From the NCBI GenBank assembly GCA_034722435.1, contig JAYENX010000030.1, forward strand, positions 1 through 13,360: a stretch of 13,360 bases of DNA. Reading direction: 5' to 3'. The DNA comes from Nanobdellota archaeon (GTDB taxonomy: Archaea; Nanobdellota; Nanobdellia; Woesearchaeales; JAHWHD01). The translations under genes were made by a program, and so were the position numbers. Of this stretch, positions 2,692 through 12,327 are shown in pieces; positions within the stretch are counted from its first letter, which is position 1, and each line of letters opens with the position of its first letter. The notes beneath the pieces are model-generated. The model had not been told where the DNA came from and searched no databases. It saw only the letters and a program-made list of their open reading frames with translations.

Positions 2692-3843
2692 CTATTTCAA
2701 ATGAATTTCAATAACATCCTTATCTTTCAATCTATGTTTTAATCCAAGTTTTTGACCAGGAAACTTTGCAGACTTCCCCCATACTTTTACAAATTTAAAC
2801 TTAACAATAAAATCTTTATGTAACTTTCTACAAGCACCTTCAATATTAACTCCTTTTTTCAAAATTAAAGGTTCAGTCATATCAGCCTTCTTCCCTACTT
2901 CCTTCGTATAAACTCTGATAAAATTTAACTTATCAACTATCAAATCTTTCAAATTTTCAATATTAATTTTCTTATTAGCCGAAATCTCGATATCAGGTTT
3001 AAGTTGAACTCTTAACTTTTCAAGAGTTTCACCATCAACAAGGTCAACTTTTGTCAAAATAGTAATTCCAGGAATGTAAATTTTATTATTTTCAATAGAA
3101 TCAATTAATCTATCAGGAGTAATATTTTCCCTTATCACAACTTGAGCATTCATCATTCTAAACTCTTTCAAAATACCAATCATAGTTTGTCTAGTCATCC
3201 ATTTTTGCTTACAAGTCAAACCAAGATCAACACCCCCTTTAGAAGTTTTCTTAATAGTTACATCAGGCCTGTGCTGGTTTAATCTTAAATGAGTATCATA
3301 AATCTCTTTTTTGACTACATTATAATGTTCAGGATGTAATGAATCAACTAATACTAAAACTAAATCAGCATTCCGCATTACAGAAAGAACCTCTTTACCT
3401 CTACCTTTTCCAGATGCAGCACCCCTCACAATTCCTGGAACATCTAAAATTTGTATTTTTGCCTCCCTATGCTTCAGTAGTCCAGGTACAACACTAAGAG
3501 TGGTAAACTCATATGCAGCGACCTCACTTGCAGCACCCGTAATTACATTCAAAAGAGTACTCTTACCTACTGAAGGAAAACCTATGAGTATAACTGTAGC
3601 ATCTCCAGATTTGCTAACAGAATACCCTTCAAATTTAGGACCTGACTTAGATCTTGACTCCCTCTTTTCTTTTAACCTTGCAATCTTAGCCTTAATAAGA
3701 CCTATATGATGCTGAGTTTTTTTATTATACTTAGTCTTACTTATCTCTTTTTCAAGTTCTACAATCTCATCAGAAGTAGTCTTTTTTTTAGGTGCATCCG
3801 CCAACCTTTTTTGTTTTGAAACTTTTGGCTTCTTTTTTGGCAT
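2692..3843 (-). CDS. drg: DRG-family (OBG-like) GTP-binding protein with C-terminal TGS domain
   Basis: N-terminal KYNKKTQHHIGLIKAKIA, G1 GFPSVGKS, G2 YEFTT, G3 DVPG, G4 TKVD, and TGS motifs VKVWGKSAKFPGQKLG and HRLKDKDVIEI. Confidence 0.95.
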   Translation of the reverse strand: MPKKKPKVSKQKRLADAPKKKTTSDEIVELEKEISKTKYNKKTQHHIGLIKAKIARLKEKRESRSKSGPKFEGYSVSKSGDATVILIGFPSVGKSTLLNVITGAASEVAAYEFTTLSVVPGLLKHREAKIQILDVPGIVRGAASGKGRGKEVLSVMRNADLVLVLVDSLHPEHYNVVKKEIYDTHLRLNQHRPDVTIKKTSKGGVDLGLTCKQKWMTRQTMIGILKEFRMMNAQVVIRENITPDRLIDSIENNKIYIPGITILTKVDLVDGETLEKLRVQLKPDIEISANKKINIENLKDLIVDKLNFIRVYTKEVGKKADMTEPLILKKGVNIEGACRKLHKDFIVKFKFVKVWGKSAKFPGQKLGLKHRLKDKDVIEIHLK

Positions 3844-4453: not shown

Positions 4454-4696
4454 TTATTGTATATTTTCTAACAAACTTACCACATTCCAGATTTGAGTTC
4501 TAGTATATGCTTGAAGATTTGTATCATCAGAAATTTCATCTAGAATATGTAAAGCTTTATTGACTTTCATAGAAATATCAGAACCTTCATTAAGCGCTTC
4601 AATAATGGCCTGAATTTTTGCCTTAACATTCTTAGGAACAGTTGAATCACTTGCCAACTCTTCAAGAACAGTTAATACATCAGATAATTCAGTCAT
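4454..4696 (-). CDS. UPF0147 family protein
   Basis: 80 aa with DSTVPKNVK, ALHILDEISDDTNLQAYTRTQIWNVVSLLE, the characteristic archaeal UPF0147 pattern. It overlaps the pfdB stop by 8 nt. Confidence 0.9.
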   Translation of the reverse strand: MTELSDVLTVLEELASDSTVPKNVKAKIQAIIEALNEGSDISMKVNKALHILDEISDDTNLQAYTRTQIWNVVSLLENIQ

Positions 4697-5024
4697 TTTT
4701 AAGTTCTTTCATAACCTCAGTCTGCATTTGCGTTGCTTTCTCTTTAACTTTAGCTTCTTGCTTTTCTAAAGTCTTAATCCTTAACTCCACCATCTCTTTA
4801 TCATCTTTAAGATCTTTCTCAAGAATTTCTTTTTCAGATGCAACCATAATATTCCCTACAATTTTATAAGCCTTAGAAGTAGTCTTAAGTTCTTGCATTG
4901 CAGAATCAATTTCAATAAGCTGTTGCTGAAATTGTTGTTTTTGTACTAATAAACTATGTAAAGATTGTTCAAACATTTGTAATTGTGAAATTTTTTGTTC
5001 AGCTTCTTTTGACATATTAGACAT
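4689..5024 (-). CDS. pfdB: Prefoldin beta subunit
   Basis: Coiled coil, beta hairpin (AYKIVGNIMV), coiled coil. I moved the start from 5048 to ATG 5024 because a GGTGA SD (+ strand 5030-5034) lies just upstream and it follows the pcc1 stop by 1 nt. Confidence 0.93.
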   Translation of the reverse strand: MSNMSKEAEQKISQLQMFEQSLHSLLVQKQQFQQQLIEIDSAMQELKTTSKAYKIVGNIMVASEKEILEKDLKDDKEMVELRIKTLEKQEAKVKEKATQMQTEVMKELKND

Positions 5025-5025
5025 A

Positions 5026-5247
5026 TTATTCACCTTTTGCTTTTTCATACACTGATAATAATTTTGTTATTGAATTAAGCGTCGCTCTTAATGCTGCAGG
5101 GTCCTGTGCTTTAACAACAAAATGAACTTCATCACCTTCTTGTACAACATCAAACTCCGACCTTGAAAATTTACCTTTTTCAACAATAAAGGCTTTGTAA
5201 ACCAAATCAACACTACCAACAACTTTCACAACAGCCTCATACTTCAT
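5026..5247 (-). CDS. pcc1: KEOPS complex subunit Pcc1
   Basis: 73 aa with the motif AQDPAALRATLNSITKLL. It sits between rpoP and pfdB, as in the conserved archaeal superoperon. Confidence 0.85.
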   Translation of the reverse strand: MKYEAVVKVVGSVDLVYKAFIVEKGKFSRSEFDVVQEGDEVHFVVKAQDPAALRATLNSITKLLSVYEKAKGE

Positions 5248-5382: not shown

Positions 5383-5640
5383 CTATGCAACCTCTTTGAT
5401 TACTCTTGCTGTCGGTTCATAAGCTTTACCTGTAAACTTAGAATCACATTTCTTACAATGCCAAATACCTACACTCACTCTTCTTACAAAAGGTTTATGA
5501 CAAAATGGACATTTATGTTTAGCTCTATGCTGTTTCTCTATTTCATTAAACTTGTGCTTCAGAGTTCGACCATATCTCGCTCCAAATCTCCTCGCTGCAC
5601 CCAGCTTAGGATTCCGTTTTTTAGATTTTTTCTCTGCCAT
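5383..5640 (-). CDS. rpl37ae: 50S ribosomal protein L37Ae (eL43)
   Basis: RFGARYG, HKCPFC, RRVSVGIWHCKKC and FTGKAY signatures. Confidence 0.97.
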   Translation of the reverse strand: MAEKKSKKRNPKLGAARRFGARYGRTLKHKFNEIEKQHRAKHKCPFCHKPFVRRVSVGIWHCKKCDSKFTGKAYEPTARVIKEVA

Positions 5641-5659
5641 TTTTATTATCTTTAATATA

Positions 5660-5769
5660 TGGGGCTGCCCGGACTTTCGAGGTCTTGTCTTATTTATAAA
5701 ACTTACCTTTCGAACCGGGGTCGCAAGGTCCCAAACCTCGAATGATAGACCAAGCTACACTACAGCCCC
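5660..5769 (-). tRNA. tRNA-Pro(UGG) with a 35-nt intron in the T-loop; CCA not encoded
   Basis: The minus strand reads GGGGCTG TA GTGT AGCTTGGTCTA TCAT T CGAGG TT-TGG-GA CCTTG CGAC CCCGG TTCGAA[35 nt]T CCGGG CAGCCCC A. It has a 7-bp acceptor stem, a D-loop GG, anticodon TGG and a 5-bp T stem. The mature length is 75 nt after removing the insert. Confidence 0.93.
5674..5708 (-). other. tRNA intron at non-canonical position 59/60 with a relaxed bulge-helix-bulge motif
   Basis: Insert AGGTAAGTTTTATAAATAAGACAAGACCTCGAAAG. Outer helix CCCGG/CCGGG, 3-nt bulge AGU, central helix UUCG/CGAA, imperfect second bulge, inner helix AGGU/ACCU, then a GUUUUA/UAAGAC hairpin. Cutting 2 nt into each bulge restores the T-loop UUCGAAU. 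Confidence 0.8.
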
Positions 5770-5796: not shown

Positions 5797-5811
5797 TTTA
5801 TAAAGGTTTCG
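5797..5811 (-). promoter_or_regulatory. BRE + TATA promoter of tRNA-Pro (and probably of the downstream rpl37ae cluster)
   Basis: The minus strand reads CGAAACC-TTTATAAA, with the TATA ending 27 nt upstream of tRNA G1 (5769). Confidence 0.7.
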
Positions 5812-5858: not shown

Positions 5859-6956
5859 ATGTCAATATCAGCTAAACAAAAATTTGAACTTAAAAAATTA
5901 GTTAAAGAATTAAGTGAATATAGAGGAAGGCACACTGAACTAGTTACAGTTTATATCTCTGAAGGTTATGATCTTAATAAAGTAATTAATCAACTATCCC
6001 AAGAACAAGGCACTGCCTCAAATATCAAAAGCACTTCTACTAGAAAAAATGTTCAAGATGCACTTGAAAAAATGATTCAACATCTTAAACTATTCAAAAA
6101 GACACCTGAAAACGGTCTTGCTTGTTTCTCAGGAAATGTTGCAGAACGTGAAGGTCAAAGCAATGTTAAAGTATGGAGCATTGAACCTCCAAACCCTCTT
6201 AACACCCGAATTTATAGATGTGACAAAACTTTCGTACTTGAACCGCTTATGGATATGATGGAGATTAAAGAGGTTTATGGCATGGTTGTAATGGACAGAA
6301 GAGATGCCGACATTGCATTATTAAAAGGCAAAAGCCTTATTCCTCTTAAAAAAACACATTCAGAAGTTCCAGGGAAAATGCGTGCAGGTGGTCAATCTGC
6401 TGCAAGATTTGAAAGATTAAGAGAAGGCGCTGCTAAAGACCATTATAAAAAAATAGCAGATTATATGAAAGAACAATTCCTTAATTTAAAAGGCCTTAAA
6501 GGAATCATTATTGGAGGTCCTGGAACAACAGTTAATGATTTCATGAACAAAGGATATCTTACAGGAGATCTTAAAAAAAAAATCATAGGAACAAAAGATT
6601 TGTCATATACTGGCCTTTTTGGTCTTCACGAACTTCTGGATAAAAGTACAGATATTTTAGCTGCTGAAGAAGTAGCAGATGAAAAACAAATTATGCAAAA
6701 ATTCTTCGATTTATTAGCTAAAAAACCAGGAATGGTAGCATATGGTGAAGAAGAATGTTTTAACAAAACACAATCAGGCGTGACTGATGTACTACTTCTC
6801 TCAGAATCTCTTGACGATGAAACTATTGAAAGATTCGAAAAAGAAGGAGAAAAAATGGGTTCCATAATAAAAATAATATCATTAGAAACAAGAGAAGGAG
6901 TCCAACTTAGAGATATGGGGAAAATCGCAGCCATTCTTAGATATGATACATCATAA
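5859..6956 (+). CDS. prf1: Archaeal peptide chain release factor 1 (aRF1/eRF1 family)
   Basis: TASNIKS (NIKS motif), YRCDKTF (YxCxxxF), RAGGQSAARFERLR (GGQ at nt 6387-6395), IIGGPG and the C-terminal IAAILRY. Confidence 0.97.
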   Translation: MSISAKQKFELKKLVKELSEYRGRHTELVTVYISEGYDLNKVINQLSQEQGTASNIKSTSTRKNVQDALEKMIQHLKLFKKTPENGLACFSGNVAEREGQSNVKVWSIEPPNPLNTRIYRCDKTFVLEPLMDMMEIKEVYGMVVMDRRDADIALLKGKSLIPLKKTHSEVPGKMRAGGQSAARFERLREGAAKDHYKKIADYMKEQFLNLKGLKGIIIGGPGTTVNDFMNKGYLTGDLKKKIIGTKDLSYTGLFGLHELLDKSTDILAAEEVADEKQIMQKFFDLLAKKPGMVAYGEEECFNKTQSGVTDVLLLSESLDDETIERFEKEGEKMGSIIKIISLETREGVQLRDMGKIAAILRYDTS

Positions 6957-7636
6957 TGAAGAAAGAAGATTTGATCATAACAGCTTTTGAAAGACTCTAT
7001 CCTAATAAAAATCTAAACAAACAAATTGCACTAAAATATTCTGGAAGGTTCTCCGACTATAATGCAAATGTTAAAATGACCTCATACAACATAGAATTCA
7101 ATCTTAGCAAAAAATGGCGAGGAGTAAGTAAAGAAATAATTATTGGATTACTACAGGACTTAATCTTAAAAATTAACAAAGATAAAAGAAAAACTCTTAA
7201 TACCGATCTTTATCATAACTTCATAAAAAGTTTACATCATAGCATTAAAAAGGATAAAACAGACCCTATACTCGAAGCTTCATTCAATAGAGTAAACGAA
7301 CAATACTTTACTGGGCTTATGGAAAGACCAAATCTTGTTTGGGGAAGATTTTCAAAAAGAAAACTCGGAAGTTACGATTTTCATACAGACACAATCTCTA
7401 TGTCTAAACATTTCATCGACAAAGAACACAATCTTCTGGATTATGTAATGTATCATGAAATGCTACATAAAAAATTTAAATTCACAAATTCAGGTTCACG
7501 AAACAGGTTTCATTCTACAGAATTTAAAAAAGCTGAAAAAAAATTCCAGAACTCAGAAGAAATAGAAAAAAGACTAAAATATATTGGAAGAACTAAAAAC
7601 AAGAGAAAAATAGCGTTTTTTAAGTTTTTCAAGTGA
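6956..7636 (+). CDS. SprT/YgjP-like zinc metallopeptidase (zincin) with a degenerate N-terminal duplicate domain
   Basis: YVMYHEMLH (HExxH, aa 167-171, nt 7454-7468) with a third His in RFHSTEF (aa 186), preceded by KLGSY and ISMS. The start overlaps the aRF1 stop (TAATG). Confidence 0.8.
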   Translation: MKKEDLIITAFERLYPNKNLNKQIALKYSGRFSDYNANVKMTSYNIEFNLSKKWRGVSKEIIIGLLQDLILKINKDKRKTLNTDLYHNFIKSLHHSIKKDKTDPILEASFNRVNEQYFTGLMERPNLVWGRFSKRKLGSYDFHTDTISMSKHFIDKEHNLLDYVMYHEMLHKKFKFTNSGSRNRFHSTEFKKAEKKFQNSEEIEKRLKYIGRTKNKRKIAFFKFFK

Positions 7637-8676: not shown

Positions 8677-10881
8677 ATGCTAAAAAACTTCACTCCAAGA
8701 CTATACCAAGAAACTATATTCTCGACATGCGTCAACTATAACACTTTAGTTGTACTTCCTACAGGACTTGGAAAAACTAATGTATTCCTTATGCTTACCG
8801 CACAGCGCTTGAAACAATACCCTAACTCAAAAATTCTTTTTATAGGTCCGACAAGACCCCTCATTGACCAATATCAACAAGTATTTGAAAAACATTTTAA
8901 TATAGAAAGTGAAAAAATGGCAATCTTCACTGGCCAAGTTTCACCTAAAAAAAGGTCAGAAATATGGAAAAAAGCGCAAATAATATTTTCCACACCTCAA
9001 GGATTAGAGAACGACATTATAGGGAGCAGAATTGATATAAAAAATGTTTCATTAATAGGATTTGACGAAGCCCATAAATCAGTTGGAGACTATGCAAATG
9101 TCTTTATCGCAAAACAATACAATAAATTAGCAAGACATCCACGAATAATTGCATTAACCGCCTCACCAGGCTCAGACATGGAAAAAATAAACGAAGTATG
9201 CCAAAACCTTTTTATTGAAAAGATTGAAGTAAGAACTGACCAAGATCCTGATGTAAAACCTTATGTTAAAGATATAGATGTTACTTGGGTCAAAGTTCAA
9301 CTACCACCCTCATTCCTAAAAGTTAAAAAGTTTCTCGAAGATTGTTTCAAATCTAAAATAAAATCTGTTGAAGAATTTGGTTACATCAACAAAGGTCAAA
9401 TCAAATCATATAGCAAGAGAGATATTTTAGGATTGCAAGGACATTTACAAGGAGAAATTGCAAGAGGAGAAAAAAGTTTTGAATCCCTTAAATCAATATC
9501 ACTCCTTGCTGAAGCAATGAAAGTACAACACGCATTAGAACTTCTTGAAACTCAAGGTATTACAGCATTAAATGAATATTTTAATAAAATAAACAAAGAA
9601 TCTCTGACTACCAAAGTTAAAGCAACACAAAATCTTGCAAAAGATCCTAACTTTAGAAGCGCATATCTTTTAACAAAAAATATGTACGAAGCAGGTGTTG
9701 AACATCCAAAACTAAAAAAATTAAAAGATATAGTTCAAGAAAAAGTAAAAAAAGATATAAAAATCATCATATTTAACCAATACAGAGACGCTGCGACTAA
9801 AATTGTTGATGAAATCAGCCAAATAGAAAATGCAAACCCTAAACTGTTTGTTGGCCAAATGAAAAAAAAAGGTATTGGCTTATCACAAAAAAAACAAAAA
9901 GAAATCATGGACGAATTTAGACGTGGCGAATTCAATATCCTTGTAACAACATCGGTTGCAGAAGAAGGTCTCGACATACCAGCTGTCGACATTGTTATAT
10001 TCTATGAACCAATTCCCTCCGCAATAAGAACGGTCCAAAGAAGAGGAAGAACAGGTAGACAAGACTCGGGCAAGGTATATGTCCTCATGGCAGAAAATAC
10101 AAGAGATGTTGCTTATAAATGGTCTGCACACCATAAAGAAAAAAGGATGTACAGAAACCTCGAAATATTAAAAAAGAAATTTAATGGATATCAAAAAAAA
10201 CAACAACCCCTTACAAAATTCATTAATGAAAAAGAAGACATCAAAATATTCGCAGACCACAGAGAAAAAGGATCAGGCGTAATCAAACAACTCCTAGAAC
10301 TTGGTTTAAAACTAAAACTAGACAGACTAGAAGTGGGAGATTATCTTTGTAGTTCAAGGGTAGCTGTAGAATTCAAAAACGTTCCTGATTTCATAAACTC
10401 AATAATGGATGGAAGATTACTTGAACAATTAAAAAATTTAAAGAAAAACTTTGAAAGACCAATTTTAATTATTGAAGGTGAAGAAGACATTTTTTCTGTA
10501 AGAAATATTCATCCAAACGCCATAAGAGGTATGCTTGCCACTATAACTATAAGTTACGGAATACCTATATTAAGAACTAAGAATTTCAAAGAAACAGCAT
10601 CTTTACTTGCAGTTATCTGCAAAAGAGAGCAAACTAACGAACAAAAAGATTTTTCTATGCATGGCGAGAAACGCATTACAACACTTAAAGATATGCAAGA
10701 ATATATCATTTCATCACTTCCAGGGGTAGGTCCAACACTCTCAAAACCACTCCTTAAACATTTTAAAACTATTAAAAACATATTCAACGCTTCAGAAGAA
10801 GAACTTAAAAAAATAGACCTAATAGGAACTAAAAAAGCTCAACAGATTAACAAAATAATTAATACTGAATGGATTGAATAA
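8677..10881 (+). CDS. hef: Hef helicase/endonuclease (FANCM/Mph1-like SF2 helicase + ERCC4 nuclease + HhH2)
   Basis: Q motif PRLYQ, Walker A LPTGLGKT, DEAH, TASP, TSVAEEGLDIP and QRRGRTGR. ERCC4 domain ADHRE...VGDY...VEFK...DGRL.EQ. C-terminal LPGVGP / IDLIG HhH pair. Confidence 0.96.
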   Translation: MLKNFTPRLYQETIFSTCVNYNTLVVLPTGLGKTNVFLMLTAQRLKQYPNSKILFIGPTRPLIDQYQQVFEKHFNIESEKMAIFTGQVSPKKRSEIWKKAQIIFSTPQGLENDIIGSRIDIKNVSLIGFDEAHKSVGDYANVFIAKQYNKLARHPRIIALTASPGSDMEKINEVCQNLFIEKIEVRTDQDPDVKPYVKDIDVTWVKVQLPPSFLKVKKFLEDCFKSKIKSVEEFGYINKGQIKSYSKRDILGLQGHLQGEIARGEKSFESLKSISLLAEAMKVQHALELLETQGITALNEYFNKINKESLTTKVKATQNLAKDPNFRSAYLLTKNMYEAGVEHPKLKKLKDIVQEKVKKDIKIIIFNQYRDAATKIVDEISQIENANPKLFVGQMKKKGIGLSQKKQKEIMDEFRRGEFNILVTTSVAEEGLDIPAVDIVIFYEPIPSAIRTVQRRGRTGRQDSGKVYVLMAENTRDVAYKWSAHHKEKRMYRNLEILKKKFNGYQKKQQPLTKFINEKEDIKIFADHREKGSGVIKQLLELGLKLKLDRLEVGDYLCSSRVAVEFKNVPDFINSIMDGRLLEQLKNLKKNFERPILIIEGEEDIFSVRNIHPNAIRGMLATITISYGIPILRTKNFKETASLLAVICKREQTNEQKDFSMHGEKRITTLKDMQEYIISSLPGVGPTLSKPLLKHFKTIKNIFNASEEELKKIDLIGTKKAQQINKIINTEWIE

Positions 10882-10974: not shown

Positions 10975-12327
10975 ATGATAACAAAACTAGGTATTGGAGC
11001 AAGTTATAATGACTCAGGCCCTCTAGAAAAAGTATTAAAAGAGATTAACGCTAAAGCGCATGAAGAAAGAACAAAATCAGGCATAACAAATCATTACTTT
11101 AAAAGAACTCGAGAAGATCCTAGAACAAGTAAATTCAATTATTCACTTTACGACATTCCAATTGTTGTTTACACATTAATGAACGCACTCGCTTCTGATG
11201 CGAATCATATAGCAATTGTAGGCGACCAATTAACAGGAAAAATAACTAAACATTTCGCAAAATTCTTTGAAACTGACTATTCAAAATTCACTTTTGTAAA
11301 TGAAGGAACAGATTGGTCTCTAGAAAATACATTTAGAGGATTAAAAGAAGGACTCAAAGCTAAACCTTCTGAATCAATTGCACAAATTTCTGGAGACACC
11401 CCGGTTTACCTTGATTTAAACGAAATGTTAAGAGACCCTGATGCAAAAGATTTTGACCTAGTATTTGATTTAAACTGTAGAGAAAACATTTACAAAATAA
11501 ATTTCACAGATAACAAAGGTCCATACAACAGACGATGGCATCTACCCATTTTCCAAAACCATGGCTGGAAAGCAATCTGGGTAAAAGAACCTAACGGAGG
11601 AATCTGGAAATTCAACGATAACACTTTTAACAAAATTAACACACTATTTGATGGAAGAAAATCATACGGAACTCAAAATAAAAAAGGAAAATTAAAAGGA
11701 AGAGCGAAATTAATAAATGAATTTTTCTTAAAAAACGGAAAGTGGTGGAAAACCCTAGCAACTGCTCCTAGAGCTCTTGCATACCTAGGATTAAGAAAAT
11801 TCACACCATTCAATGTTCCGTTGTTCGATTTTAATAGAATGAGTAAGATCGCATCTTACGCTCTTGAAGCACCAGTTCTTATTAAAGGAAAACATTCAGA
11901 ATGGGGAAGACTCGCAGATATAGACTCTGCCGAAGACCTTGCATTCTTTGAAGCATTAATGCACTCCGCTGAAGATCCATCACAAATTTATCCATATTTC
12001 AATGAAATAAAAAGGTTTACAGAATATTTAAAAACACAACCAGATATGCAAAACGAAGAATTAATCCAAGATTTCCACACTTACATGAACGAATGGTTTG
12101 AACAATTTCCACTCCTCAAAGGAAAACAACTATATGACGACAAAGGCACATACATAGGCCCTAAACTTGATAAAACAAATGTTCTCAACGATAAAAATAA
12201 CAGAAACATATTATCCAGTAAAGATTCACCCGTATACGCAGCCAAAGATTCTGAAAAGAAACTTCAAATAGTTATGGACACGCAACTCGTATCAGCAAAA
12301 GCTTTCCGTATGGAATATATGAGTTAA
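10975..12327 (+). CDS. Divergent MobA/CobY-like nucleotidyltransferase (GT-A fold) with insertions and a C-terminal extension
   Basis: KFNYSLYDIPIVVYTLMNALAS..HIAIVG resembles K..L.G.P++.Y.+.A...S.....+VG. ISGDTP resembles the D-x-P metal motif, and ADIDSAEDL resembles DIDTPEDL. The N-terminal Gly-rich loop is atypical (GIGASYNDSG). Substrate unknown. Confidence 0.6.
   Translation: MITKLGIGASYNDSGPLEKVLKEINAKAHEERTKSGITNHYFKRTREDPRTSKFNYSLYDIPIVVYTLMNALASDANHIAIVGDQLTGKITKHFAKFFETDYSKFTFVNEGTDWSLENTFRGLKEGLKAKPSESIAQISGDTPVYLDLNEMLRDPDAKDFDLVFDLNCRENIYKINFTDNKGPYNRRWHLPIFQNHGWKAIWVKEPNGGIWKFNDNTFNKINTLFDGRKSYGTQNKKGKLKGRAKLINEFFLKNGKWWKTLATAPRALAYLGLRKFTPFNVPLFDFNRMSKIASYALEAPVLIKGKHSEWGRLADIDSAEDLAFFEALMHSAEDPSQIYPYFNEIKRFTEYLKTQPDMQNEELIQDFHTYMNEWFEQFPLLKGKQLYDDKGTYIGPKLDKTNVLNDKNNRNILSSKDSPVYAAKDSEKKLQIVMDTQLVSAKAFRMEYMS

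What the first reader, a model, noticed from the sequence alone, without database searches (positions are those of the whole stretch)
5660..5769. tRNA-Pro(UGG) interrupted in the T-loop (59/60) by a 35-nt intron with a relaxed BHB motif
Seen: an otherwise perfect cloverleaf whose T-loop is expanded by 35 nt. The pre-tRNA can fold as T-stem CCCGG/CCGGG, 3-nt bulge AGU, 4-bp helix UUCG/CGAA, an imperfect second bulge (AA, or AAA opposite U) and an intron hairpin. Cutting after the second nucleotide of each bulge restores UUCGAAU. Established: most archaeal tRNA introns lie at 37/38. Non-canonical positions with relaxed motifs are known mainly from Thermoproteales and some nano-sized archaea, and need broad-specificity splicing endonucleases rather than the strict euryarchaeal homomeric type. 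Inference: this lineage has a relaxed-specificity EndA, and T-loop folding and modification must follow splicing. Standard tRNA scans may miss or mis-call this gene. The exact junction (59/60 vs 58/59, giving UUCGAGU) is not fully fixed by the sequence.
Basis: partly seen in the sequence, partly recalled or inferred. Interest (0 to 1): 0.7.

Follow-up and report, generated by a model that had tools for sequence, protein, structure and literature searches.

The report
T-loop intron in proline tRNA gene
This is a real proline tRNA gene of a tiny brine archaeon (Woesearchaeota-type, DPANN), the only UGG copy found in its assembly, interrupted in its T-loop by a 35-base protein-spliced intron; the kind is already known, is common in this genome and order, and the only odd point is that the lineage carries just the simplest type of splicing enzyme.

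Summary
On the minus strand, 5769..5660, lies a tRNA-Pro(UGG) gene whose T-loop holds 35 extra bases (5708..5674).

- **Detection:** ARAGORN and Rfam (gathering score) miss the gene. Removing those 35 bases in silico gives a 75-nt tRNA-Pro(UGG).
- **Junction:** it is fixed at 59/60. Thirteen intron-less orthologues show the predicted T-loop TTCRAAT.
- **Not a pseudogene:**
  - No second copy was found in the 94.5%-complete assembly.
  - The locus next to the L37ae gene is conserved.
  - Eleven related genomes carry an intron of 15-85 nt at the same site.
  - At least 16 other tRNA genes of this genome have the same architecture, with tRNA position 57 covarying with its intron partner (G:C 11, A:U 6, none mixed).
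- **Enzymes:** one EndA gene, RtcB and archease are present. EndA is a single short alpha-type unit without the loops linked to broad specificity. Fifty-seven of 61 genomes of the order, including closed ones, have exactly one such match.
- **Prior knowledge:** 59/60 introns are published for ARMAN-2 (Fujishima 2011), and Kaneta 2018 already linked alpha4-type DPANN enzymes to disrupted tRNA genes.
- **Earlier in this scan:** sister T-loop introns were reported on other contigs of this genome.
- **Gap:** no RNA data exist, so splicing is inferred.

It is a new member of a known kind, of modest interest.

The parts
5660..5769 (-). tRNA-Pro(UGG) gene, G1 at 5769 to discriminator A73 at 5660; no encoded CCA
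   Evidence: Sequence. ARAGORN calls tRNA-Pro(tgg), 75 nt, after in-silico intron removal. The spliced sequence is 81-89% identical and colinear to intron-less orthologues, which score 55-58 bits on Rfam tRNA.
5709..5769 (-). 5' exon, tRNA positions 1-59 (61 nt; D-loop of 11 nt, variable region of 4 nt)
   Evidence: BLAST matches in relatives, and contigs of other organisms in the brine runs, end exactly at 5709.
5731..5733 (-). anticodon UGG (U34 at 5733), followed by G37
   Evidence: Read from the sequence; ARAGORN anticodon call.
5674..5708 (-). 35-nt intron between tRNA positions 59 and 60, with an internal hairpin GUUUUA-UAAA-UAAGAC
   Evidence: The same-genus orthologue G001 (unpublished genome) has the same 35-nt intron with 3 substitutions.
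5711..5714 (-). 5' strand of the central 4-bp helix: U54 U55 C56 G57 of the T-loop
   Evidence: Pairs with CGAA at 5676-5679. Across 30 introns at 59/60, position 57 and its intron partner are G:C 20 times and A:U 10 times, never mixed.
5676..5679 (-). 3' strand of the central helix (CGAA, intron nt 30-33). It is preceded by one extra U (5680) opposite the 5' bulge, and followed by the 3' bulge A-G^U60 (5675, 5674, 5673).
5660..5673 (-). 3' exon: U60, T-stem 3' strand CCGGG, acceptor 3' strand CAGCCCC, A73
   Evidence: It equals the sequence that directly follows TTCRAA in intron-less orthologues.
5797..5804 (-). candidate TATA box TTTATAAA, 28-35 nt upstream of tRNA position 1
   Evidence: Read. 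Eleven of 17 T-loop-intron tRNA genes of this genome show a similar YTTTAWAWA element at the same distance. Inferred, not tested.
5383..5640 (-). ribosomal protein L37ae gene, 19 nt downstream on the same strand (conserved neighbour)
   Evidence: Pfam PF01780, E = 3.7e-26. L37ae lies next to tRNA-Pro(UGG) in 21 related loci, with or without the intron.

Best explanation
This is a functional archaeal tRNA-Pro(UGG) gene, the only UGG copy found in the assembly. It carries one protein-spliced (bulge-helix-bulge) intron of 35 nt between positions 59 and 60.

Proposed mechanism:
1. In the precursor, T-loop nucleotides U54-G57 pair with CGAA near the 3' end of the intron.
2. The intact T stem and an intron helix flank this 4-bp helix. 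The two splice sites therefore sit in bulges on opposite strands: A58 A59^A and A G^U60.
3. The shape equals the canonical 37/38 intron, moved from the anticodon hairpin to the other 5-bp-stem, 7-nt-loop hairpin of the tRNA.
4. The genome's single EndA cuts after the second bulge nucleotide on each side.
5. RtcB with archease joins the exons, restoring the T-loop UUCGAAU, and probably circularises the intron.
6. Only then can the T-loop be modified and dock on the D-loop.

Shown here: the gene, the motif, its conservation and covariation, the product predicted from orthologues, and the presence of the enzyme genes.

Inferred: transcription, cleavage, ligation and the order of events.

The intron is one of at least 17 at this position in this genome. 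It is a common, vertically inherited, variable trait of the order.
For: - **Cloverleaf and motif:**
- **In-silico splicing:** removing 5674-5708 gives tRNA-Pro(tgg). The reversed-genome control gave 1 hit against 25.
- **Single copy:** no second copy of the 5' exon or the anticodon arm in the assembly, and no other Pro(UGG) by ARAGORN or Rfam.
- **Orthologues at the conserved L37ae / eRF1-family locus:**
  - Eleven related genomes have an intron at 59/60 of 15-85 nt with unrelated interiors but the same helix and bulges.
  - Thirteen genomes are intron-less with T-loop TTCRAAT.
  - Intron-less ones score 55-58 bits on Rfam tRNA, while intron-bearing ones are missed.
- **Paralogues in this genome:** a scan that did not require the central helix found 17 GC-rich tRNA genes with an insert at 59/60 and 10 without. 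All 17 pair 4 of 4 in the helix, with G57:C 11, A57:U 6 and none mixed.
- **Order-wide signature:** GTTCRA..YGAAAGTCC occurs in 44 of 61 genomes of the order, and 11 times in this genome.
- **Enzyme genes:** EndA with N and C domains and the Tyr/His/Lys triad; RtcB and archease.
- **Published precedent:** 59/60 introns are cleaved in vitro in ARMAN-2 (PMC3239211).
- **Relative rates:** against the same-genus orthologue G001 (unpublished genome) the intron has 3 changes in 35 nt and the exons 1 in 75.
Against: - No RNA evidence: no run on record as RNA holds this DNA.
- The 5' splice site is not a clean 3-nt bulge. One extra U lies opposite it, and the minimum-energy fold prefers a 5-bp helix with a 2-nt bulge.
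- The only EndA is of the type that published assays describe as strict (PMC5829648, PMC3488258).
- The assembly is 94.5% complete, so a second tRNA-Pro(UGG) or a second EndA subunit cannot be excluded for this genome alone.
Confidence: 0.9

Rival explanations
1. Insertion-inactivated pseudogene: the 35 nt are junk that killed the gene, and CCA/CCG/CCU/CCC codons are read by other tRNA-Pro species or by an unassembled copy.
For: The assembly is incomplete at 94.5%. Two other isoacceptor genes exist, Pro(CGG) on C11 and Pro(GGG) on C3. No RNA data are available.
Against: - The exons are intact and 81-89% identical to working-looking orthologues, with compensatory stem changes.
- The same site is occupied in 11 other genomes at a syntenic locus, with the helix preserved.
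- Sixteen other tRNA genes of the genome have the same insert. They include the only His, Cys, Tyr, Glu and Ala(UGC) genes my scan found, and they cannot all be dead.
- A promoter-like TATA sits at the usual distance.
- Neither other isoacceptor reads CCA well (my knowledge of decoding rules).
Confidence: 0.03
2. A real intron, but spliced at another junction (58/59 or a shifted register), giving a T-loop other than UUCGAAU.
For: The 5' bulge is imperfect, and the fold allows a 5-bp helix.
Against: - All 13 intron-less orthologues have A59 and U60 (TTCRAAT).
- In all 30 introns examined, the nucleotide after the 3' cut is U and the rule restores a 7-nt loop.
- The alternative register UCGA/UCGA would give a 9-nt loop (my reading).
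- Contigs of intron-less relatives break exactly at 5709 and continue with TCCGGG.
Confidence: 0.04
3. The extra 35 nt are kept in the mature RNA (a tRNA with a giant T-loop), or are removed by a route other than EndA, such as a self-splicing intron or a mobile-element footprint with a target duplication.
For: A 7-nt direct repeat UCGAAAG flanks 26 nt of the insert. That could look like a target-site duplication.
Against: - Removing one repeat period would leave a 9-nt loop.
- The repeat follows from UUCGAA being self-complementary, and it is absent from the TTCA-type paralogues.
- Thirty-five nt is far too short for a group I or II intron, and Rfam finds none.
- The intron has no other copy in the genome.
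- Keeping U54-G57 paired would abolish the T-loop/D-loop elbow (established tRNA structure).
Confidence: 0.02

Closest known systems
ARMAN-2 (Ca. [quoted passage not shown] 2011, PMC3239211; Hirata et al. 2012, PMC3488258)
   Same: - A DPANN archaeon.
- An intron at the same tRNA position, 59/60 in the T-loop.
- A BHB or relaxed BHB at the exon-intron boundary.
- Missed by ordinary tRNA finders.
- Cleavage at this position was shown in vitro for ARMAN-2.
   Different: - ARMAN-2 cuts with a three-unit epsilon2 enzyme carrying the ASL loop. This lineage has one short alpha-type unit without that loop.
- Here the intron is 35 nt, keeps both bulges plus an inner helix, and has one extra U opposite the 5' bulge.
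- Here 59/60 is the dominant intron site: at least 17 genes in this genome.
Non-canonical and multiple BHB introns of Thermoproteales tRNA genes, with proposed intron transposition (Sugahara 2008 and Fujishima 2010, as cited in PMC3239211 and PMC6379350; Marck & Grosjean 2003)
   Same: - Many tRNA genes per genome are interrupted outside 37/38, including the T-loop.
- Motifs are relaxed.
- Related introns occur at one position in different tRNAs. Here the Leu and Arg T-loop introns share sequence.
   Different: Those organisms have (alpha-beta)2 EndA with the Crenarchaea-specific loop. This is a mesophile-type, AT-rich DPANN genome with a single alpha-type EndA. The Pro(UGG) intron itself has no paralogue in the genome.
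alpha4-type EndAs of DPANN lineages associated with disrupted tRNA genes (Kaneta et al. 2018, PMC5829648)
   Same: The paper already reports that alpha4-type enzymes in several DPANN lineages go with marked tRNA gene disruption. It included a Woesearchaeota genome and warned that tRNA sets there are incompletely predicted.
   Different: The paper ties this to the L3 loop (N. equitans residues 90-98). In this EndA and its 120 closest homologues the Tyr-to-His spacing equals that of M. jannaschii, with no L3-type insertion.
Canonical archaeal 37/38 BHB intron
   Same: Identical geometry:
- a 5-bp stem;
- loop nucleotides 1-4 paired to the intron;
- loop nucleotides 5-6 plus the first intron nucleotide in the 5' bulge;
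- the last two intron nucleotides plus loop nucleotide 7 in the 3' bulge.

The same enzymes act (EndA, RtcB).
   Different: It sits in the T hairpin instead of the anticodon hairpin, so it blocks the T-loop rather than the anticodon loop. One extra nucleotide lies opposite the 5' bulge.

Membership tests
Archaeal BHB (EndA-spliced) tRNA intron, non-canonical position 59/60 | Removal of the insert restores a complete cloverleaf with a 7-nt T-loop | tested here: met
   ARAGORN calls tRNA-Pro(tgg), 75 nt, after deleting 5674-5708. The product is colinear with intron-less orthologues.
Archaeal BHB (EndA-spliced) tRNA intron, non-canonical position 59/60 | Two 3-nt bulges on opposite strands separated by a 4-bp helix and flanked by helices (hBHBh') | tested here: inconclusive
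   The outer helix (T stem, 5 bp), the 3' bulge AGU, the 4-bp helix UUCG/CGAA and the inner helix GGU/ACC are present. The 5' bulge AAA faces one extra U, or forms a 5-bp helix with a 2-nt bulge. The motif is near-canonical, not strict 3-4-3. Fourteen of the 30 introns at 59/60 have a U at that place.
Archaeal BHB (EndA-spliced) tRNA intron, non-canonical position 59/60 | The motif is maintained by compensatory change in homologues while the intron interior drifts | tested here: met
   Position 57 and its intron partner: G:C 20, A:U 10, none mixed. Positions 54 and 55 each show two U:G. Intron lengths run from 14 to 85 nt.
Archaeal BHB (EndA-spliced) tRNA intron, non-canonical position 59/60 | Splicing endonuclease and RtcB-type ligase encoded in the genome | tested here: met
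   EndA: PF01974 at 2e-29 and PF02778 at 1e-15. RtcB at 2e-170 and archease at 4e-36.
Archaeal BHB (EndA-spliced) tRNA intron, non-canonical position 59/60 | Spliced mature tRNA and excised (often circular) intron exist as RNA | not testable with these tools
   No run on record as RNA holds this DNA.
tRNA-Pro, UGG isoacceptor | Anticodon UGG with G37, G1-C72, A73, and orthology to tRNA-Pro(UGG) of relatives | tested here: met
   Sequence. The spliced form is 81-89% identical to 12 intron-less Pro(UGG) genes. The L37ae neighbour is conserved.
alpha4-type (homotetrameric) EndA | A single gene of one unit (N- plus C-terminal domain, about 180 aa), with no second EndA-fold gene | tested here: met
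   One match in this genome even at E <= 10, and none to its own protein apart from itself. The weak second candidate is an M23-peptidase-like ORF. Exactly one match in 57 of 61 genomes of the order, including closed G018 and G027.
alpha4-type (homotetrameric) EndA | Catalytic Tyr/His/Lys triad and the acidic L10 loop in the same chain | tested here: met
   Gap-free alignment to M. jannaschii 1a79 over residues 40-208. Tyr, His and Lys align with Y115, H125 and K156. DDESD aligns with DADGD. These positions are conserved in 120 homologues.
alpha4-type (homotetrameric) EndA | Assembles as a homotetramer | not tested
   Inferred from the sequence features above; no complex prediction or experiment was run.
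Broad-specificity EndA with a specific loop (CSL/L1, ASL/L2, N. equitans/ARMAN-2 loop L3) | An inserted loop near the active site carrying the specificity Lys or a basic cluster | tested here: not met
   Compared with this EndA, A. pernix alpha has 10 extra residues at the CSL site, ARMAN-2 has 7 extra at the ASL site, and N. equitans alpha has 6 extra basic-loop residues between the catalytic Tyr and His. A Lys or Arg is nevertheless conserved (116 of 120 homologues) at the position aligned to APE K44 and ARMAN-2 K161.
Self-splicing (group I/II) intron or mobile-element insertion | A catalytic RNA core or repeated element copies | tested here: not met
   No Rfam match. The insert is only 35 nt, and no other copy exists in the genome.

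The most novel reading that the evidence does not exclude
A whole order of DPANN archaea (Woesearchaeales-type) runs a large share of its tRNA genes, about 17 of 27 recognisable T-arms in this genome, through a T-loop intron at 59/60. These include 14-15-nt bulge-helix-loop forms.

The only enzyme available is a plain one-unit alpha4-type EndA that has none of the three loops so far held responsible for broad substrate range.

The breadth would then come from something else. One candidate is the conserved Lys/Arg on the short N-domain hairpin, which aligns with the specificity lysines K44 (A. pernix) and K161 (ARMAN-2). The strict enzymes of M. jannaschii and A. fulgidus have Phe or Leu there.
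Probability: 0.35. Interest if true: 0.6.

Novelty: new member of a known kind. Interest (0 to 1): 0.4.

Why it matters
**For annotation.** Ordinary tRNA finders miss this gene and most others in the genome: ARAGORN found about 17 tRNA calls, some spurious, and Rfam found 13 matches, 10 of them above its cut-off. Such genomes look as if they lack essential tRNAs, and completeness or codon-usage inferences go wrong.

**For biology.**
- The gene adds a well-supported case, with orthologous presence and absence at one syntenic locus, for studying gain and loss of non-canonical introns.
- The order-wide pairing of frequent T-loop introns with a loop-less single-unit EndA gives a concrete, cheap test of the rule that alpha4 enzymes cut only strict motifs.

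Tried and rejected
- **RNA evidence:** no RNA holder is listed for window:3000-9000. The three runs are DNA contigs of one brine-metagenome study, and one of them is the probable source.
- **Laid contigs:** they show that the assembly is reproduced and that no intron-less allele is present. The source run is not an independent sample.
- **Weak second PF01974 candidate** (C22:26140-26190, E = 0.3): an M23-peptidase-like ORF, rejected as a beta subunit.
- **GC-island search for hidden tRNAs:** too unspecific.
- **ARAGORN's permissiveness:**
  - After in-silico deletions it produces alternative false calls around true tRNAs.
  - It called 'intact' tRNAs in four loci (L015, L019, L023, L024) that in fact carry the intron, so I classified loci by eye.
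- **ViennaRNA hard constraints:** they did not force the weak UUCA/UGAA helices, so minimum-energy folds of TTCA-type paralogues leave the central helix open.
- **Target-site-duplication reading** of the UCGAAAG repeat: rejected, because the repeat follows from the palindrome UUCGAA.
- **Alternative helix register UCGA/UCGA:** rejected, because it gives a 9-nt loop.
- **Kaneta 2018:** no supplementary text is held, so I could not check how that paper scored the Woesearchaeota EndA for L3.
- **Earlier findings by sequence:** the look-up returned nothing.
- **Not run:** complex prediction for the tetramer, and structure prediction.
Full report
**1. What is in the sequence.**
The feature lies on the minus strand. 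From 5769 down to 5660 the sequence reads as follows:
- acceptor 5' strand GGGGCUG, then U8 A9;
- a D arm with an 11-nt loop;
- anticodon arm CGAGG / UUUGGGA / CCUUG, with anticodon UGG at 5733-5731 and G37;
- a 4-nt variable region;
- T-stem 5' strand CCCGG, then 42 nt, then T-stem 3' strand CCGGG;
- acceptor 3' strand CAGCCCC and A73.

A normal T-loop has 7 nt, so 35 are extra.

The single-strand fold gives -41.7 kcal/mol, z = -3.2, and none of 200 shuffles is as stable.
- T stem;
- UUCG paired to CGAA;
- AGU bulged on the 3' side;
- AAA facing one U on the 5' side;
- GGU/ACC and a 6-bp hairpin.

The minimum-energy form pairs A58 with that U instead, giving a 5-bp helix and a 2-nt bulge.

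**2. Standard tools miss it.**
- ARAGORN reports no tRNA in the window.
- Rfam reports nothing at gathering score.
- In E-value mode Rfam finds only the 5' part, 5716-5769, at 17.1 bits against a cut-off of 29.

In the whole 1.30-Mb, 94.5%-complete genome, Rfam's tRNA model finds only 13 places, 10 of them above its cut-off. ARAGORN finds about 17, several of them spurious.

**3. In-silico splicing, with a control.**
I wrote a SPLITS-like scan that works in three steps:
- list every place where a 4-bp helix with flanking helices could bound an intron of 11-130 nt;
- delete the candidate intron, cutting after the second nucleotide of each 3-nt bulge;
- run ARAGORN on the joined sequence.

Of 125,475 candidates, 25 gave a tRNA spanning the junction. 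One of them is window 5674-5708, which gives tRNA-Pro(tgg) of 75 nt.

The same procedure on the reversed (not complemented) genome gave 1 hit from 125,353 candidates and none at a T-loop.

**4. It is one of a family in this genome.**
Many hits ended 14-15 nt after the junction, that is, in the T-loop.

A dedicated scan asked only for four things:
- TTCRA after a GC-rich 5-bp stem strand;
- the complementary stem strand within 210 nt;
- a GC-rich 7-bp acceptor closure;
- no requirement for the central helix.

It found 10 tRNA genes with a normal 7-nt T-loop and 17 with an insert of 14-61 nt. The identities below are as ARAGORN named them:
- Pro(UGG), Pro(CGG), His, Cys and Tyr;
- Leu(UAA), Leu(UAG), Ser(UGA) and a second Ser-like gene;
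- Arg(GCG), Arg(CCU) and a further Arg/Leu-like gene on C16;
- Ile/Met-like (UAU), Glu, Ala(UGC), Gly(UCC) and a Phe-like gene.

In all 17 the last six intron nucleotides are YGAANN, and the four T-loop nucleotides 54-57 pair 4 of 4. Position 57 covaries with the intron pyrimidine: G:C 11 times, A:U 6 times, never G:U or A:C. By my own arithmetic that arrangement has a probability of 1 in 12,376 under random assortment.

The nucleotide after the 3' cut is U in every case, so the rule always restores a 7-nt loop ending in U60.

A single unpaired nucleotide opposite the 5' bulge recurs. Often it is a U that can pair with A58.

**5. Orthologues fix the junction and exclude a pseudogene.**
A DNA search of 60 related genomes found tRNA-Pro genes in 45. 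One is of the same genus, one of the same family and 58 of the same order.

I read 29 loci by eye.
- **With an intron at 59/60 of tRNA-Pro(UGG):** eleven genomes.
  - G001, 35 nt.
  - G002, 36 nt.
  - G051, 33 nt.
  - G034, 15 nt.
  - G020, 85 nt.
  - G021, 30 nt.
  - G018, 40 nt.
  - G033, 44 nt.
  - G015, 24 nt.
  - G007, 34 nt.
  - G044, 30 nt.
- **Helix in these eleven:** their interiors are unrelated, but the helix is kept as TTCG/CGAA, TTCA/TGAA, or with U:G as in CGGA and CGAG.
- **Intron-less:** thirteen genomes, all with T-loop TTCGAAT or TTCAAAT directly followed by the 3' exon sequence.

That loop is the product predicted for a 59/60 cut. A 58/59 cut would give TTCGAGT, which is never seen.

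The in-silico spliced tRNA is 81-89% identical to twelve intron-less orthologues, with compensatory stem changes. Four intron-less orthologues that I tested score 55-58 bits on Rfam's tRNA model, while three intron-bearing ones are missed.

The loci are orthologous. The L37ae gene follows the tRNA in 21 related loci, and the eRF1-family gene precedes it in 11, whether or not the intron is present.

There is no second copy of the 5' exon or the anticodon arm in the assembly.

In the brine runs, contigs of other organisms align to the 5' exon only. They stop exactly at 5709 and continue with TCCGGGTAGCCCCA, which is the predicted exon-exon join in intron-less relatives.

The following rests on G001 and G002, which are unpublished genomes and need their depositors' permission before publication:
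- The intron is inherited within the genus and family.
- In G001 it has 3 changes in 35 nt, against 1 in 75 nt of exon.
- Both relatives carry an additional anticodon-loop intron of about 40 nt that this genome lacks.

**6. Expression signals.**
A TTTATAAA element lies 28-35 nt upstream of position 1, at 5797-5804. Eleven of the 17 T-loop-intron tRNA genes show a similar element at the same distance. Those lacking it mostly follow another tRNA gene closely. This is a sequence reading, not a test. No RNA run is available.

**7. The enzymes.**
The genome has one EndA gene, at C58:50280-50903 on the minus strand. It is 176 aa from the MTKNK start, with both Pfam domains.

Searches at E <= 10 with the Pfam models and with the protein itself find no second EndA-fold gene. 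The weak candidate on C22 is an M23-peptidase-like ORF.

RtcB and archease lie close together on C25.

The best solved relatives are the N. equitans alpha subunit (3iey_A, 1.2e-35) and the M. jannaschii alpha4 enzyme (1a79, 1.2e-31). The alignment to M. jannaschii is gap-free from residue 40 to the C-terminus apart from one residue. The catalytic Tyr, His and Lys and the acidic L10 loop are in place.

The three loops that the literature links to broad substrate range are absent (PMC3488258, PMC5829648):
- N. equitans has 6 extra basic residues (K93-R97) between the catalytic Tyr and His.
- ARMAN-2 has 7 extra residues at the ASL.
- A. pernix has 10 extra residues at the CSL.

The 120 closest homologues are named Candidatus Woesearchaeota or Nanoarchaeota where a source gives a name. 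They are 69-84% identical and show the same loop lengths.

Across 61 genomes of the order, 57 have exactly one PF01974 match in an open frame of about 175-250 aa. These include the closed or nearly closed G018, G027 and G030. G018 and G034 carry the Pro(UGG) T-loop intron.

Function must nevertheless be broad, on this evidence:
- tRNA-Pro(CGG) of this genome has a 14-nt intron at 59/60 with no inner helix.
- G034's Pro(UGG) has a 15-nt one.
- Both are the bulge-helix-loop type that A. fulgidus EndA barely cut in published assays (PMC3488258, PMC5829648).

The intron of this finding keeps both bulges and both flanking helices, and has the exact geometry of a 37/38 intron moved to the T hairpin. 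It is therefore the easier kind of substrate.

**8. A lead on specificity (weak).**
In the HMMER alignments, the second Lys of the short hairpin ..LEDKKI.. aligns with ARMAN-2 K161 and with A. pernix K44. These are the residues shown by mutation to confer broad specificity.

M. jannaschii has Phe at that position and A. fulgidus has Leu. The position is Lys or Arg in 116 of 120 homologues.

Loop alignments are uncertain, and I did not test the spatial position.

**9. Comparison with what is known.**
- Introns at 59/60 are published for ARMAN-2: Cys, 13 nt, hBH type, cleaved in vitro; and Pro(GGG), with 53/54 plus 59/60 (PMC3239211).
- T-loop positions are listed among archaeal intron sites (PMC6379350).
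- Kaneta et al. 2018 already noted alpha4-type EndAs in DPANN lineages with marked tRNA gene disruption, and incomplete tRNA prediction there. They attributed the breadth to the L3 loop (PMC5829648). This family does not have that loop by my alignments.
- I found no paper in the held library that describes Woesearchaeal T-loop introns as such. That is not proof that none exists.

Earlier agents of this scan reported sister cases on other contigs of this genome: Arg(UCG), Asp, Lys, Trp, Arg(CCU) and the rRNA operon. They also reported the single simple EndA. My genome-wide counts and EndA tests were made independently and agree.

**10. Order-wide signature.**
The pattern GTTCRA-N15-45-YGAAAGTCC is a lower-bound signature of this intron class. 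It occurs in 44 of 61 genomes of the order:
- 11 times in this genome;
- 6-9 times in G001, G002, G004, G009, G018, G026, G029, G041 and G044.

The backwards control pattern gives 0-3 per genome. Some single matches in other genomes are probably chance.

**11. Verdict.**
The junction is 59/60 and the gene is almost certainly functional. It is a new member of a known kind.

The point worth an experiment is not this intron alone. It is the order-wide pairing of frequent T-loop introns, some of the loop type, with a loop-less one-unit EndA.

Noticed in passing
G000 C25:7071-7114(-), C36:29319-29364(-), C46:6388-6431(+), C16:4552-4594(-); similar pattern hits in G002, G007, G026, G028, G046: The T-loop introns of Leu(UAA), Leu(UAG), Arg(CCU) and a further Arg/Leu-like gene share sequence: start UAGUUGAYG, middle RACYGAGAA, end AGCUUCGAAAG. 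The same type recurs in other families of the order. One G028 copy reads UGAUGA...CUGA, like a C/D box or K-turn. This looks like one intron family spread over non-homologous tRNAs, perhaps carrying a protein-binding motif. The Pro(UGG) intron of the window does not belong to it.
   Followed up: no
L007:1419-1589(+) (G001) and L014 minus strand from about 1504 (G002); both genomes unpublished: The same-genus and same-family orthologues of this tRNA-Pro(UGG) carry a second intron of about 40 nt in the anticodon loop, in addition to the T-loop intron. This genome lacks it, so an intron was lost here or gained there recently.
   Followed up: partly
L008 minus strand, about 1497-1572 (G027, closed genome): An otherwise intron-less tRNA-Pro(UGG) orthologue has AAA where the acceptor needs GGG at positions 1-3, while the 3' strand is CAGCCCC. 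The first three nucleotides may be supplied across a further intron or split near position 3/4.
   Followed up: no
G000 C11:16805-16818(-): tRNA-Pro(CGG) has a 14-nt intron at 59/60 with no inner helix (bulge-helix-loop type), plus an anticodon-loop intron and about 17 further extra nucleotides. It is the hardest substrate for the single EndA that I saw in this genome.
   Followed up: partly
window 5641-5659 and 5383-5640 (-): Only 19 AT-rich bases without a T-run separate the tRNA 3' end from the L37ae start codon. The tRNA-L37ae adjacency is kept in 21 related loci, so the two may be co-transcribed.
   Followed up: partly
window 8677-10881 (+), 2692-3843 (-), 5859-6956 (+), 4689-5048 (-): Ordinary archaeal housekeeping genes surround the tRNA: a Hef-like helicase-nuclease (DEAD, Helicase_C, ERCC4, HhH), a DRG/Obg-type GTPase with a TGS domain, an eRF1-family protein of 365 aa (Pelota-sized), and a prefoldin subunit. 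The 450-aa ORF at 10975-12327 has no Pfam match.
   Followed up: no
G000 C25:35932-36345(+) and C25:36993-38276(+): The archease and RtcB genes lie close together on the same strand. On the same contig sit several intron-bearing tRNA genes, at C25:2440-2470, 7071-7114 and 28666-28695.
   Followed up: no
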